From positions 6,800,123-6,864,122 of the forward strand of contig NC_090412.1 of NCBI RefSeq assembly GCF_036365525.1: DNA of 64,000 bases, given 5' to 3'. Positions 32,520-58,829 of this stretch are shown here, piece by piece (the stretch's first letter is position 1; every line of letters starts with the position of its first letter). The position numbers and the translations under genes were made by a program. The DNA comes from Heterodontus francisci. Taxonomy: Eukaryota. A model generated the notes under the pieces. That model had not been told where the DNA came from and searched no databases. It saw only the letters and a list, made by a program, of their open reading frames with translations.

Positions 32520-32906
32520 AGAGATGCAATGAACATATACAAACGTTTTTATTTAATCACGCAGAAGGAGTTACAAATGGAAATATTTCACAGAGCTCAT
32601 ACAACAAAAAAAAAACATTTTCCCCTTACATCTGCCACACTGATCCACGAAGTGCTCACCAGCAGTAAAACTAAATGGTGGTAACATTATATTAGTTTAA
32701 AAACTCCACACAAGAACTTTGTCTCCTTTACAAAAACAATGTCACAGTCATCAAGTATTACTTGCATTTAAAAATTACAAAGGAAACGTAAAAAGTCCAC
32801 CAGATCCAACACTGCCCATAATGCAAAACAAAATCTGTGACAGGTTTCTTCACTTCTTAAAGGATTTCAAAAGATGTCTATTCCCTCTTGTTATAATTGT
32901 TGCCGC
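32520..32906 (-). other. Terminal non-coding 3' UTR exon of the hnRNP gene with AATAAA (32548-32553)
   Basis: Strong acceptor TTGTCCCTTCTGTTTTCCAG|GC; AU-rich body; AATAAA followed by U-rich sequence. The 3' end is approximate. Confidence 0.75.
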
Positions 32907-33536
32907 CTGGAAAACAGAAGGGACAACGCAGCAAGATTAAGCTTTTACCTCAGTTTTCTTCCAATAAAAAAAAGCACACACTAACCGTGTGAAGTACTGG
33001 GCTGGCCGAGACATGTTAACTCTATTTGTCAATATTTGATTAGCAGATTTGAAGAGCAAAACTATGTTTTTGTTTGATTGGTAGTATCTTCAAGGAATTA
33101 TCCAAGTCCGCCATGCTCTTGGGCCCAGCCTTCAGTTGTTATGCCAACTGCATTTACAATACATAAACTATATTTCACACACGGCAGATGCTGTAATATA
33201 CAAGTCCATTAACATTACAGACATGAGTCACTCATCACTACTGTGCTATAGAAAGAAAAAAAGCAAGCATTATTTAGCAATTGGTAGTACATTATCAAAT
33301 TACACACTATTAATAGAAAGCACAATGTGTAAGAACGGCTTTATCCATTGAAGGTACAGGAGGTCATGGCTATATTACCACTTAACTTGAGCCTGTAAAG
33401 AAAATATCACTATATAATTTTATTTTTAAAAAAAAGGAAAAACAATGTCTGCGTGAATGAAAGTGTATAATTAGAGTTTTTTTTTTAAACTGTCTTTAAT
33501 CTTTATGGTGAGACAGAAGGTTGGAAGAGACCATAC

Positions 33537-55900: not shown

Positions 55901-58829
55901 AACAAAAAAAATCAACCCAGGAAACTGAAAGCTCCTTGAACAGCTATACAAGGATTAATTAGTTTCAATAAGTGCTAAAAGCAGAAATTATTTTCGCATT
56001 CAAGCCTGCAGTGATATCAAAATTGACCTTGCAACATCAGCACTTTTTGTAAACTTTCATTCACATAGTGTTCTTTTTAAAAAAGGGATTATATACATCA
56101 TATATGCACATCACAAACCATTCGGGAATAAAGATGCAATCTAATCAATGAGGTCAAGGCACGAATAAACCAGTCAAGACTTCTGTGTGGTTTAGGGCAT
56201 TATCCAAACTCAACTAAAGGCTTCTTCACTGGTGGATAAACAGTCCAACATAATTTTTGCAATATGGCTTCTGAAAGATCGTGTCCTACACACCACACCC
56301 CTATACCCAATATCTGAAGAGTAGATTAGTCACCATTTTGCTACACCAGCTCCACAATGCAAGTTAGCACAGAATTTCAGCAAACTCAAATGGCTGGAAT
56401 TGTGAATTTCAGCATGCACTGCAAAGAAGTAAAGTGCAAGTTTGTCAAAACTATGCTGTTCACACTAACAAAATTCAAACAAATATGCTTCACTGCAGTA
56501 AGCACTGTAGTACAAGTATGTGAAAGTTTGAATATAGATCTCAACAAGATGGCAATGATTGCAACAAGCAGTAACTGCTCAAACTTGGAGATTCGGTTGG
56601 TTTTTAAACATATCAACCAACATGGTTCCCAGGTAGATAAAACCCACAAAATCTGATTTTTTTAAAACTGGAAATCATTTCAATGTCTCATTATTTAACA
56701 GAGCTCTTAAGAAGCTTTATTCAGTTTTGCTCAGGACCCAGCTACAGATTAATCACATCGCTTGCCTCCCAGACCAGCTGTTTGTACTTCTGCACAGCAG
56801 CAGAGCATCAGGTCAGCTCTACAGTTACAGTGTAACCTGAAAAAGAATTCACTCAAGATGACATCTCCATATCAGAGATGTTTTAGTCAAATGGTTGAAA
56901 AATGAAAGGACTTCAATTACGTGGAGACTACAGAAAATAGGATTGTGCTCCTTACAGCAGAGAGAATCAAGGGGAGATCTTAGAGGTGTTCAAAAGTGAC
57001 ATGTTTTGGTAAGAGTAAGGAAGGAGCACCTGTTTTCACATGCAGAAGGGTGATTAACCATAAAACACAGATTTAAGATAATTGGCAAAAGAACTAGAGG
57101 AGGGGTAAGAATTTTTCTGAAGTGAGCTCTGATGATCTGGAATGCACTGCCTAAAAGGGCGATGGACACAACTTAATAATAATTTACAAAAAGGAATTGG
57201 ATAAATACTTGACATGGAAAATTTACAGAACTATTGGGAAAGTAGGGAGGAGGACTAATTAGGCAGCTCTTTCAAAGAACCAGAACAGGCACAATGGCTT
57301 CCTTCTGTGTTGCAACGTTCTCCAACAAATCCACATTGATCAGAAAAGTGCTGTAAAAGTAGCACGTACCCACCAGCTTTTGAAAAGATAAATGTTTGCA
57401 GATTTGACAATGTTGGGCTATTTTTCTGCAGATTTCCATTATTTGTCTAAATTTTTCTCTCACACTGTCACAATGAGTCAGAGGATACTTGAGAGTATGA
57501 CACCTCAAGGTGTAAAGGGAAGCAACAGAGACACTTAGAGGAAAGGGCAGGACATTTGGAAGACTATTAATGTGTATATAGATGTATCTCAGCCAGTTGG
57601 TAACACTTTTGCCTCAGAGGCAGAAGGTTGTGGGTTCAAGTCACATTCCAGAGACTTGCACAAAAATCCAGGTCGACTCTCCAGTGTAGTACTGTGACAG
57701 CGCTGCATAAAGCCTGACTACCCCACCCGAACCCGACTACACGTGCCGGGGGTCGGGTCGGAGTCTATATTCCGAGTCCAGCATTCAGGCTCGGGCAGGG
57801 ATGGACACTGCAGTTTCCGGGAAGTCACGAGATCATGATGCCCCACAACTCCATCTGCAGGAATAGCCTGGAATGGATGAAGGATATTTGTGTCAGGTTG
57901 GGCGCGGAAAAAAATTAAAGGACTCGGACCCGGGTTGGGTAGGCCATGGTCGGGTCGGGTTTCAATTTTATACACGAGCAGGCCGTTAGTGCTGCATTGT
58001 TGGAGGTGCAGTCTTTCAGATGAGACATTAAACTGAGGCTCCTTCTGCCGTCTATTCAAAGAAAAGCTGGGAAGTTTTCCTGTGTCCTGGCCAATAATTA
58101 CCCCTCAAGCATCACTAAAATAGATTATCTAGTCATGGTCACACTGCAGCTTGTGGGAGCTTACTGTGCGCAAACTGGCTGCTACATTTCCCCAAGTTAC
58201 AGCAGTGACTGTACTTCAAAAGGACTGCATTGGCTGTAAAGCGCTTTGGGGCGTCCCGAGGTCATAAAGGCGCTATATAAATGCAAGTTCTTTCATCTCT
58301 TCAGTCACGTGTTGTACAGTAGAAATGGAGCCTGTAAAAACATCCAGTTCATTTAACAATTAAACTTCTGGATTGCGGGTGGAGGGGGGAATATGAATTC
58401 AAGGTTTTAAACGCTGAAGTTAGCAATGAGCCAATCTCATTTACAGGAACAGGCCCAGGGCTCCAACAAGGGGGGTCACTCCGGGGTCAACTGCATTCCC
58501 AGGCCTCGAGGCCCAACCGGAGGCCCGGCTCCCTCCGAACCCTCTCCCCGCACTCACCCTTCGTCCTCCTCATTCTTGCTGGCGTTAATCTTCGAACCTT
58601 CCACCTCCTTCACCGGCGGCAGGGGCTGCTGCTGATCCCGGCTCCCGTCTCCCACCCGCCCCGAGGCCTCGCCGCCCGCCCCCGTCGCCGGCGCGGCTTT
58701 CGAGTCGGGCCCGCCGCCGAACGACGCCTCGCTCCCTCCCTGCCCGCCGAAGCTGTAGAAGGCGCCGTCGAAATCGTCGGCGGCCGCCCCGGCGCTCCCG
58801 TTTTCCGCGAATTGACCCCCGTCCGCCAT
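34919..58829 (-). CDS. hnRNP D/DL/AB-family RNA-binding protein (2 RRMs, Gly/Tyr-rich low-complexity domain, PY-NLS), 356 aa; join 58829-58558, 47348-47180, 41209-41051, 40079-39948, 39761-39668, 37905-37738, 34995-34919
   Basis: Seven exons with GT-AG boundaries and consistent phases total 1071 nt. Motifs: [23 protein letters not shown]1 [19 protein letters not shown]1 [11 protein letters not shown] box, Y/G/N-rich tail ending RPY. Exact orthology (HNRNPD, HNRNPDL, HNRNPAB or an extra paralog) is unresolved. Confidence 0.95.
35871..36002 (+). mobile_element. Single-arm copy of the same Penelope-derived repeat with an intact CTGATGA...GAAAC core
   Basis: CTGATGAAAGGTCACTGACCTGAAACGTTAACTCTGC..CACAGATGCTGCCAGACCTGCTGAG. 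Another degenerate copy lies at about 40124-40245. Confidence 0.7.
36885..37308 (+). mobile_element. SacSINE1/DeuSINE-like SINE
   Basis: Same family as 57585-58295. More diverged copies lie at about 3060-3210, 5240-5560, 35094-35500, 38485-38895, 44520-44780 and 46515-46850. Confidence 0.7.
37738..37905 (-). CDS. hnRNP D-family exon 6, Tyr/Gly/Asn-rich prion-like exon (168 nt, symmetric phase 1-1, likely cassette)
   Basis: TTTCTAG|GA acceptor, A|GTAAGT donor; [16 protein letters not shown]...GQGYGDYN. Confidence 0.93.
39668..39761 (-). CDS. hnRNP D-family exon 5 ([22 protein letters not shown]...), 94 nt
   Basis: Poly-pyrimidine tract with AAAG|GTT acceptor, G|GTATAA donor; Q-rich and RGG segment. 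Confidence 0.94.
39948..40079 (-). CDS. hnRNP D-family exon 4 (RRM2), 132 nt
   Basis: Not in the ORF track; translated by hand as [51 protein letters not shown] and AAG|GTGTGG boundaries. Confidence 0.95.
40246..40600 (-). mobile_element. HE1-like SINE
   Basis: Same family sequence. Confidence 0.85.
41051..41209 (-). CDS. hnRNP D-family exon 3 (end of RRM1, start of RRM2), 159 nt
   Basis: TCAG|GTA acceptor, GAG|GTAAGA donor; [13 protein letters not shown]...KKIFVGGL. Confidence 0.96.
45561..45918 (-). mobile_element. HE1-like SINE
   Basis: Same family sequence. Confidence 0.85.
47180..47348 (-). CDS. hnRNP D-family exon 2 (RRM1), 169 nt
   Basis: Acceptor GCAG|G, donor [57 protein letters not shown]. 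Confidence 0.96.
49080..49695 (-). mobile_element. CR1 LINE 3' fragment
   Basis: Typical CR1 tail AGAATAGGAGTAGGCCATTCGGCCC and [16 protein letters not shown] remnant. Similar short CR1 3' pieces at about 185-900, 15020-15510, 16090-16460, 26335-26830, 31770-32150, 37960-38295, 44790-45255, 56900-57310 and 59680-59990. Confidence 0.75.
50697..50747 (-). CDS. Candidate 51-nt in-frame cassette exon ([17 protein letters not shown]), possibly homologous to AUF1/HNRNPD exon 2
   Basis: TTGCAG|G...AA|GTTAGC; phase 2-2 fits between exons 1 and 2 with no stop; weak similarity to HSNSSPRHSEAATAQREEW. Splice sites are only moderate. Confidence 0.4.
51490..52805 (+). mobile_element. Degenerate CR1 LINE 3' half (RT domain and 3' UTR)
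   Basis: [12 protein letters not shown], PQGSVLGP- and KFADD-coding remnants; [22 protein letters not shown] is a CR1 signature. Confidence 0.85.
53817..54026. mobile_element. Palindromic Penelope-derived non-autonomous element with hammerhead-ribozyme-like cores
   Basis: Inverted arms of about 72 bp (53814-53886 and 53893-53965); GAGTT-CCGAAGA-A-GGGTC ACT GACCC-GAAACGTT-AACTC; 15-bp TSD TCAAAAAGTAGTTCA at 53802-53816 and 54027-54041. Confidence 0.75.
54575..55082 (+). mobile_element. CR1 (HER1-like) LINE 3' fragment whose tail matches the HE1-like SINE tail
   Basis: [15 protein letters not shown] remnant; ends GGGCCGAAGGGTCTGTTTCAGTGCTGTAT. Confidence 0.8.
57585..58295 (+). mobile_element. 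SacSINE1/DeuSINE-like SINE with an L2-type tail (interrupted by the hAT MITE)
   Basis: tRNA-like head (TCAGCCAGTTGG..GGTTCAAGTC), Deu-domain-like core (TTTCAGATGAGACATTAAAC), tail AAAGGCGCTATATAAATGCAAG. Confidence 0.75.
57708..57988. mobile_element. hAT-superfamily MITE nested in a DeuSINE
   Basis: 8-bp TSD GCGCTGCA/GTGCTGCA; imperfect TIRs TAAAGCCTG...CAGGCCGTTA; subterminal ACCCGA/TCGGGT repeats. Confidence 0.75.

What the first reader, a model, noticed from the sequence alone, without database searches (positions are those of the whole stretch)
32520..58829. Possible fourth hnRNP D/DL/AB ohnolog, located next to BLOC1S2
Seen in sequence: the protein mixes diagnostic features of the three mammalian paralogs. 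D-like: NEEDEG and QQQQWG. DL-like: [10 protein letters not shown] and KGKE. AB-like: [11 protein letters not shown] and KMFVGGL. It also has a one-residue deletion (VLNKEH), a divergent tail ([13 protein letters not shown]) and a D/DL-type spliced 3' UTR. Its neighbour is BLOC1S2. Known: human BLOC1S2 is at 10q24.31 beside PKD2L1, SCD and SEC31B, whose paralogs PKD2, SCD5 and SEC31A flank HNRNPD/HNRNPDL at 4q21-22; HNRNPAB is at 5q35. Mammals have no member at 10q24. Inference: this may be a whole-genome-duplication copy retained in cartilaginous fish and lost in mammals.
Basis: partly seen in the sequence, partly recalled or inferred. Interest (0 to 1): 0.75.

Follow-up and report, generated by a model that had tools for sequence, protein, structure and literature searches.

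The report
Fourth hnRNP D gene in sharks
Sharks and rays carry an intact fourth gene of the hnRNP D (AUF1) family of RNA-binding proteins, separate from the three that humans have; it is likely a leftover of the first vertebrate genome doubling that the lineage leading to mammals lost, an ordinary kind of finding but an apparently undescribed gene.

Summary
The gene is real. Seven coding exons (minus strand, 58829-34919) give a 356-aa protein with two RRMs, identical to the horn shark RefSeq model XP_067876537.1. An intron lies in the 3' UTR, and BLOC1S2 sits about 6 kb downstream. The gene ('X') forms its own clade (100/98) in 18 shark and ray species plus a chimaera fragment. Four species show X, D, DL and AB side by side, so it is no translocated copy of a known gene. 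In little skate, D and DL lie on chromosome 1, AB on 11, and a second 'Hnrnpd' beside Bloc1s2 on 34. The skate paper assigns these chromosomes to segments 2-alpha, 2-beta and 1-alpha of one paralogon. That predicts X split off at the first doubling, and the trees put X first (88-90 bootstrap; alternatives not rejected). X is a fourth gene but the third surviving locus. Scd lies about 7 Mb away in skate. X lacks the histidine of the family's nuclear import signal, and its UTR intron holds a conserved candidate poison exon. Loss in bony vertebrates is inferred, not exhaustively tested. Verdict: new member of a known kind.

The parts
58450..59050 (.). CpG island over promoter and exon 1
   Evidence: GC 0.69, CpG observed/expected 1.06, against 0.41 and 0.28 in the gene body
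58558..58829 (-). coding exon 1 (aa 1-91): G/A-rich N-terminus, ends in the conserved [12 protein letters not shown] pre-RRM motif
   Evidence: weak CBFNT hit at aa 55-91, below cut-off
47180..47348 (-). exon 2 (aa 92-147): RRM1 with RNP2 F94 and RNP1 F134/F136
41051..41209 (-). exon 3 (aa 148-200): end of RRM1 with one-residue deletion, linker, RRM2 RNP2 (F178)
   Evidence: a contig loose end matches the exon 3-4 join (table 7)
39948..40079 (-). exon 4 (aa 201-244): RRM2 RNP1 F218/F220
   Evidence: join to exon 5 in 4 of 4 runs
39668..39761 (-). exon 5 (aa 245-275): end of RRM2, Q run, RGG; a second donor 9 nt upstream gives the 353-aa form
   Evidence: each donor seen in 3 of 4 runs; 353-aa form identical to P0139
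37738..37905 (-). exon 6 (aa 276-331): G/Y/N-rich low-complexity domain
   Evidence: join to exon 7 in 4 of 4 runs
34884..34995 (-). exon 7: PY-type tail [19 protein letters not shown], stop at 34921-34919, 35 nt of UTR
   Evidence: skipping it gives the 340-aa RefSeq form P0149
32907..34883 (-). 3' UTR intron, 1977 nt; its 3' part is unusually conserved
   Evidence: joined across in 4 of 4 runs; 3 of 744 differences against 61 of 2330 in four other intronic pieces
32986..33245 (-). candidate 260-nt poison cassette exon (predicted, not observed)
   Evidence: acceptor with 16 of 18 pyrimidines, donor 7 of 9; inclusion would put the last junction 295 nt after the stop
32520..32906 (-). last exon (3' UTR), ATTAAA at 32557
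17393..26117 (-). neighbour BLOC1S2, coding exons 26117-25919, 22477-22361, 20800-20681, 18345-18241, 17424-17393
   Evidence: open frame with GT-AG introns; Pfam PF10046 on exons 3 and 4

Best explanation
This is an intact, spliced fourth gene of the hnRNP D/DL/AB family, present across sharks and rays alongside D, DL and AB, and it is likely the copy left by the first vertebrate whole-genome duplication on the human-chromosome-10-like segment, likely lost later in bony vertebrates. History (inferred from synteny plus trees): 1R made copies 1 and 2. Copy 1-alpha is this gene. Copy 2 gave 2-alpha (D and DL, by tandem duplication) and 2-beta (AB). No 1-beta copy was found. Function (inferred from anatomy): it would work like AUF1/hnRNP DL, binding U/AU-rich single-stranded RNA through two RRMs with all six RNP aromatic residues intact, and using the RGG and G/Y-rich tail for protein contacts, to affect splicing and mRNA decay. 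It would limit its own level through a poison exon in the 3' UTR intron coupled to nonsense-mediated decay, as D and DL do. Its import signal keeps the basic patch and the Y-x-PY end but lacks the middle His/Arg, so nuclear import is predicted to be somewhat weaker than in its paralogs.
For: Shown: gene model and identity to RefSeq; splice joins in contigs. X is one clade in four trees: 99 SH-aLRT in the quick 47-row tree and 100/98 in three careful trees. All four genes are listed for Cetorhinus, Hemitrygon, Chiloscyllium punctatum and Mobula hypostoma, with D and DL on one contig and X and AB on others where lengths are given. Horn shark holds X (36.8-Mb contig), AB (122.1 Mb) and DL (287.9 Mb). 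AU tests reject X with bony D (p 4e-5) or bony DL (p 0.005), and X as a shark-only duplicate of D (5e-6) or DL (0.004). From PMC10115646 supplement: Hnrnpd-1 and Hnrnpdl on Leri_1C (94.61, 94.66 Mb), Hnrnpab on Leri_11C, Hnrnpd-2 and Bloc1s2 on Leri_34C (6.46, 6.49 Mb). Its SI Table 3 puts LER34 in 1-alpha, LER1 in 2-alpha and LER11 in 2-beta of linkage groups I/Q. This predicts (X,(D,DL,AB)), the best tree with lamprey alone (90/89) and with six outgroups (88/90; 90/91 under C20). Of 460 proteins classed by clade profile, 48 fit X best; 47 carry cartilaginous-fish names and one is unnamed.
Against: The branch that puts X first is never starred, and X+DL (p 0.06-0.08), X+AB (0.07-0.12) and X+D (0.09-0.12) are not rejected. 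X as a shark-only duplicate of AB is only borderline rejected (p 0.047). The trees rest on 181 columns. Skate 'Hnrnpd-2' is matched to X by its Bloc1s2 neighbour and chromosome size, not by sequence. Loss in bony vertebrates rests on searches that list only their best 120-150 rows, none a full-length X query against the 90% clusters; the exon-3 search missed shark D and DL, so it was incomplete. Close synteny with 10q24 is broken in skate. No join using the candidate poison exon is among the 15 of 78 joints shown. No binding or localisation was measured.
Confidence: 0.8

Rival explanations
1. An ohnolog, but of one tandem member only: D and DL were already a tandem pair before the doublings, and X is the surviving sister of DL (AB the sister of D).
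For: X and all 9 DL rows share KGKE, while shark D, AB and lamprey have a linker one residue shorter. X+DL is not rejected (p 0.06). D+AB costs no likelihood against D+DL.
Against: 5 of 6 outgroup proteins have the longer linker, so it is ancestral and does not unite X with DL. All best trees keep X apart from DL. Only one lamprey gene was found.
Confidence: 0.1
2. A single-gene or segmental duplicate of AB that arose in early jawed or cartilaginous fishes and moved to this chromosome.
For: X is closest to shark AB in the core (81.6% against 77.7% D and 74.4% DL). X+AB is not rejected and X+shark AB only just. Local gene order differs from human 10q24.
Against: Shark AB is slow-evolving and also closest to D, DL and lamprey, so likeness is not kinship. 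The copy sits on exactly the paralogon chromosome that lacks a family member in human (PMC3112091). It has introns and a CpG-island promoter, so it is no retrocopy.
Confidence: 0.08
3. A known ortholog (D, DL or AB) that was moved next to BLOC1S2.
For: RefSeq names its isoforms 'D-like', 'D0-like' or 'A/B-like'. Horn shark D was not seen.
Against: Shark D, DL and AB each group with their bony orthologs, and four species show all four genes.
Confidence: 0.02

Closest known systems
HNRNPD (AUF1) and HNRNPDL, human 4q21
   Same: Two RRMs, Q run, RGG, G/Y tail, PY end; stop codon in the second-last exon with a UTR junction under 50 nt away (35 nt here, 22 nt in human DL per PMC5824352); best solved-structure hit is hnRNP DL 7zir, E 3.5e-123.
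   Different: Separate clade (core identity 77% to mammalian D, 72% to mammalian DL); 13 core columns where X differs from all D, DL and AB rows; other chromosome; lacks the R/H/K-x2-5-PY residue.
HNRNPAB, human 5q35
   Same: Highest core identity (81.6% to horn shark AB); same domain order.
   Different: CBFNT N-terminus passes cut-off in shark AB but not in X; AB has the shorter linker; different paralogon segment (2-beta against 1-alpha).
Ohnologs kept in cartilaginous fishes and lost in bony fishes (wnt6b, cspg5 and others; PMC10115646 counts 19)
   Same: Same pattern of retention and loss.
   Different: Here the retained copy is a core RNA-processing factor. I could not read the list of 19, so it may already hold this gene.

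Membership tests
hnRNP D/DL/AB subfamily | Two tandem RRMs with intact RNP1/RNP2 aromatics | tested here: met
   Pfam RRM_1, two stretches; F94, F134, F136, F178, F218, F220
hnRNP D/DL/AB subfamily | Groups with vertebrate D, DL, AB and the lamprey gene against outside relatives | tested here: met
   100/99
hnRNP D/DL/AB subfamily | Q run, RGG and G/Y-rich tail ending in PY | tested here: met
hnRNP D/DL/AB subfamily | Full PY-NLS with R/H/K-x2-5-PY | tested here: not met
   1 of 33 X tails (the one is the chimeric P0010) against 32 of 32 D, 101 of 101 DL, 170 of 173 AB; motif per PMC2408616, where it is written RX2-5PY; the H/K variants are recalled
hnRNP D/DL/AB subfamily | Binds AU/U-rich RNA and shuttles | not testable with these tools
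   inferred from residues; function of D from PMC4947485
HNRNPD orthologs | Groups with bony D; VAMSKE at the end of RRM2; next to DL | tested here: not met
   AU p 4e-5; separate shark D exists
HNRNPDL orthologs | Groups with bony DL; NERRGF in RRM2 | tested here: not met
   AU p 0.005; horn shark DL is P0412 on another contig
HNRNPAB orthologs | Groups with bony AB; CBFNT N-terminus; GGA13-like chromosome | tested here: not met
   Horn shark AB is P0157 on another contig; the AB clade has 91-93 bootstrap without X; X+bony AB is not rejected by AU (p 0.07), so this rests on the separate locus
Vertebrate whole-genome-duplication ohnolog (NK paralogon, groups I/Q) | Lies on a paralogous chromosome segment | tested here: met
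   Skate Leri_34C = 1-alpha, Leri_1C = 2-alpha, Leri_11C = 2-beta; shown in skate, carried over to this species
Vertebrate whole-genome-duplication ohnolog (NK paralogon, groups I/Q) | Duplication after invertebrates and before the shark/bony split | tested here: met
   shark-only origin rejected from D and DL, borderline from AB
Vertebrate whole-genome-duplication ohnolog (NK paralogon, groups I/Q) | Branching order matches 1R then 2R | tested here: inconclusive
   Best trees match (88-90 bootstrap) but rivals are not rejected
D/DL-type autoregulation by a 3' UTR poison exon | Conserved cassette exon in the UTR intron whose inclusion triggers decay | tested here: inconclusive
   Conserved stretch and splice sites present; inclusion not seen among 15 of 78 joints shown

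The most novel reading that the evidence does not exclude
X is the only living descendant of one whole half of the family (the 1R 'copy 1' branch). It carries its own 3' UTR poison exon, which would date the D/DL self- and cross-regulation circuit to before the first vertebrate genome doubling and make it a three-way loop in sharks. With its weakened import signal it has become the more cytoplasmic, mRNA-decay-side member, a role that bony vertebrates would cover with the spliced isoforms of AUF1.
Probability: 0.25. Interest if true: 0.55.

Novelty: new member of a known kind. Interest (0 to 1): 0.35.

Why it matters
It completes the history of a well-studied, disease-linked family: the human trio would descend from only one of the two first-doubling copies, and sharks keep the other. 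It gives a natural outgroup for asking which features of AUF1 and hnRNP DL are ancestral (poison-exon control, import signal, low-complexity tail). It also corrects annotation: RefSeq gives the name 'hnRNP D-like' to X, to true DL and to many shark AB models, so three genes are easily confused. The kind of event is known, so surprise for a specialist is modest.

Tried and rejected
No whole genome is held for this window, so this species' own flanking genes could not be read; no gene other than BLOC1S2 was recognised among long ORFs of the window. No RNA holder listed: the runs are only guessed to be RNA, and contig depth was not used as a measure of expression. One organism among them may be the window's source. 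The careful 47-row tree did not finish; the quick tree was read. 'Mosaic or gene-converted protein': rejected, the motifs are ancestral. 'KGKE unites X with DL': rejected by outgroups. 'Teleost hnrnpd is the X ortholog', suggested by its rank: rejected, it groups with D. 'X and the lamprey gene are one clade': neither shown nor rejected (p 0.2). The 50%-cluster search gave no further X-like protein among the 139 new rows. Literature: nine answered searches and one search found no paper describing this paralog; the library lacks most subscription journals. The catshark supplement was unreadable. The Lamb 2021 supplement had no hit for HNRNPD, HNRNPAB or BLOC1S2. Wnt8, Sec31, Enoph1 and Prkg2 had no row in the cut skate table. 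Three look-ups of earlier findings returned nothing.
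Full report
Gene. The window holds a minus-strand gene with coding exons 58829-58558, 47348-47180, 41209-41051, 40079-39948, 39761-39668, 37905-37738 and 34995-34919. All introns are GT-AG and the frame gives 356 aa. The protein is identical to P0144, RefSeq XP_067876537.1 of Heterodontus francisci, named 'hnRNP D-like isoform X1', on a 36,822,176-base contig. 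I call the gene X. In contigs of four public runs (at most three samples, guessed to be RNA), the joins of exons 4-5, 6-7 and 7-last are in 4 of 4 runs, and each of the two exon-5 donors in 3 of 4. The promoter is a CpG island. BLOC1S2 follows about 6 kb downstream on the same strand.

All are present, but they do not mark paralogs. In the core alignment [10 protein letters not shown] is in 6 of 6 X, 5 of 9 DL and 3 of 9 AB rows; QQQQWG in 6 of 6 X, 7 of 8 D and 3 of 9 AB; NEEDEG in 5 of 6 X, 4 of 8 D and 3 of 9 DL; KMFVGGL in 5 of 6 X, 6 of 8 D, 9 of 9 AB and lamprey. KGKE is shared only with DL, but the longer linker it stands for is also in 5 of 6 outgroup proteins. So X is slow-evolving, not mosaic. 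It has its own marks: 13 core columns differ from every D, DL and AB row, and the VLN-KEH deletion is confined to sharks and rays.

Distribution. The exon-3 search ranked cartilaginous-fish proteins first, at 94-100% identity. Cluster look-ups list X for 18 shark and ray species. The tail from the Q run on is 92-100 identical of 95-100 aligned residues across 17 proteins, which points to strong constraint. The chimaera evidence is one UniRef entry, P0010, whose first 230 residues are X-like (95% core identity) but whose last 112 are identical to chimaera AB. It is probably a chimeric assembly, and I used it only up to RRM2.

Not a moved ortholog. Searches with shark AB and coelacanth DL found shark D and shark DL. 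Horn shark has DL on a 287.9-Mb contig and AB on a 122.1-Mb contig. Horn shark D was not among the 15 of 45 members listed. All four genes are listed for Cetorhinus maximus, Hemitrygon akajei, Chiloscyllium punctatum and Mobula hypostoma. D and DL have neighbouring accession numbers in Mobula, Hemitrygon and Hypanus, as a tandem pair would. On 181 core columns X, D and DL are each one starred clade and AB has 91-93 bootstrap. AU tests reject X with bony D or bony DL, and X as a shark-only copy of D or DL. A shark-only copy of AB is borderline, p 0.047.

Synteny. No genome is held here, so I used the little skate paper, PMC10115646 (passages, section 6, and rows of supplementary file 2, which is cut). 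SI Table 10 places promoters of Hnrnpd-1 and Hnrnpdl on Leri_1C at 94.61 and 94.66 Mb, Hnrnpab on Leri_11C at 45.48 Mb, and Hnrnpd-2 and Bloc1s2 on Leri_34C at 6.46 and 6.49 Mb. That spacing fits the roughly 33 kb between the two start codons in the window. Leri_34C reaches at least 19.15 Mb and skate X lies on a 19.86-Mb contig, so I take Hnrnpd-2 to be X; this is inference. SI Table 3 gives, for linkage groups I/Q: 1-alpha = LER15 + LER34, 1-beta = LER35, 2-alpha = LER1, 2-beta = LER11. I read 150 of 330 places for Leri_34C in sequence, plus rows found by gene name. Of 31 other named genes seen there, 26 carry names of human chromosome 10 genes (human positions recalled, not from a call). 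The other five (Msx2-2, Elovl6-2, Mttp-1, Tmem150a-2, Scd5-2) are named after genes of chromosomes 2, 4 and 5 (recalled). Gdf10 lies 5.6 Mb from X and its paralog Bmp3 5.2 Mb from D (the paralogy is recalled). PMC3112091 and PMC2453138 (passages) place the human family in this paralogon with two members on chromosome 4 and one on 5.

Timing. If X is 1-alpha and D/DL and AB are 2-alpha and 2-beta, X should branch first. It does in every tree: 86 SH-aLRT, 90/89, 88/90, 90/91. None is starred, and X+DL, X+AB and X+D are not rejected (p 0.06-0.12). The agreement of two independent lines is the main support. The six outgroups are unnamed proteins; four have long branches. The lamprey gene falls outside all four clades with weak support, and X+lamprey is not rejected.

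Loss. No protein with a bony-vertebrate name fits the X profile best among 460 fetched, and none of the 139 new 50% representatives is X-like. These lists are cut at 120-150 rows and one search missed known relatives. Absence is therefore secure for human and mouse and only likely for coelacanth, lungfish, bichir and gar.

How it would work. Shown: two RRMs with all RNP aromatics, Q run, RGG, G/Y tail. Inferred: AU/U-rich RNA binding and roles in splicing and decay like AUF1 (PMC4947485, passages). In human D and DL a conserved cassette exon in the 3' UTR triggers decay and gives self- and cross-regulation (PMC5824352, passages). X has the same layout, with the junction 35 nt after the stop. 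The 3' part of its UTR intron differs at 3 of 744 bases from a second species, against 61 of 2330 in four other intronic pieces (Fisher p 4.5e-5). This is one species pair, with pieces cut by the assembler and chosen after seeing them. The stretch holds a candidate 260-nt exon, 33245-32986, whose use I did not see. The import signal differs from the paralogs: R/H/K-x2-5-PY is in 1 of 33 X tails (the chimeric entry), 32 of 32 D, 101 of 101 DL and 170 of 173 AB. PMC2408616 (passages) gives this position at most about 1 kcal/mol in D and DL, so import would be weakened, not lost.

Novelty. The gene is in public annotations as 'D-like' and in the skate tables as Hnrnpd-2. Ten searches found no paper that treats it as a separate paralog; I saw listings only for papers not cited above. 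The skate paper reports 19 ohnologs kept in cartilaginous and lost in bony fishes; the list was not readable and may include it. It is a new member of a known kind: interest 0.35.

Noticed in passing
window 8051-11258 and 29268-31436, minus strand: Two copies of one LINE retrotransposon, 95.9% identical over 2224 bases. The first has a 920-aa frame with endonuclease and reverse transcriptase domains, so the family is young. The second lies between X and BLOC1S2.
   Followed up: partly
P0010 (UniRef V9KVZ5, Callorhinchus milii): X-type RRMs joined to an AB tail (last 112 residues identical to chimaera AB): likely a chimeric transcript assembly; real gene conversion is not excluded.
   Followed up: partly
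skate Leri_34C, PMC10115646 SI Table 10: The same chromosome carries Elovl6-2, Mttp-1, Tmem150a-2 and Msx2-2, extra copies of families whose human members lie elsewhere in this paralogon (recalled): more candidates for retained ohnologs.
   Followed up: no
shark D proteins P0280, P0281, P0433, P0436: Shark D, AB and the lamprey gene each lack one linker residue that X, DL, bony D and most outgroups keep: either repeated loss of the same residue or exchange between tandem D and DL.
   Followed up: partly
window 32906 and exon 6: Skipping exon 7 puts the last 'UTR' exon in frame and gives a short tail without the PY signal (340 aa, RefSeq P0149). Shark D and coelacanth and shark DL models have similar short tails.
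   Followed up: partly
window 25919-26117: BLOC1S2 exon 1 encodes a long acidic N-terminus with a run of glutamates from the first ATG; the start codon is not confirmed.
   Followed up: no
P0498, P0507, P0509, P0521, P0526, P0535, P0543 and others: A group of unnamed, strongly diverged DL-like two-RRM proteins of 270-570 aa among the 50% representatives; possibly fast-evolving DL retrocopies.
   Followed up: no
P0120 (Scyliorhinus canicula, 163-Mb contig): A partial AB-like model on a different contig from catshark AB (244 Mb): probably a gene fragment.
   Followed up: no
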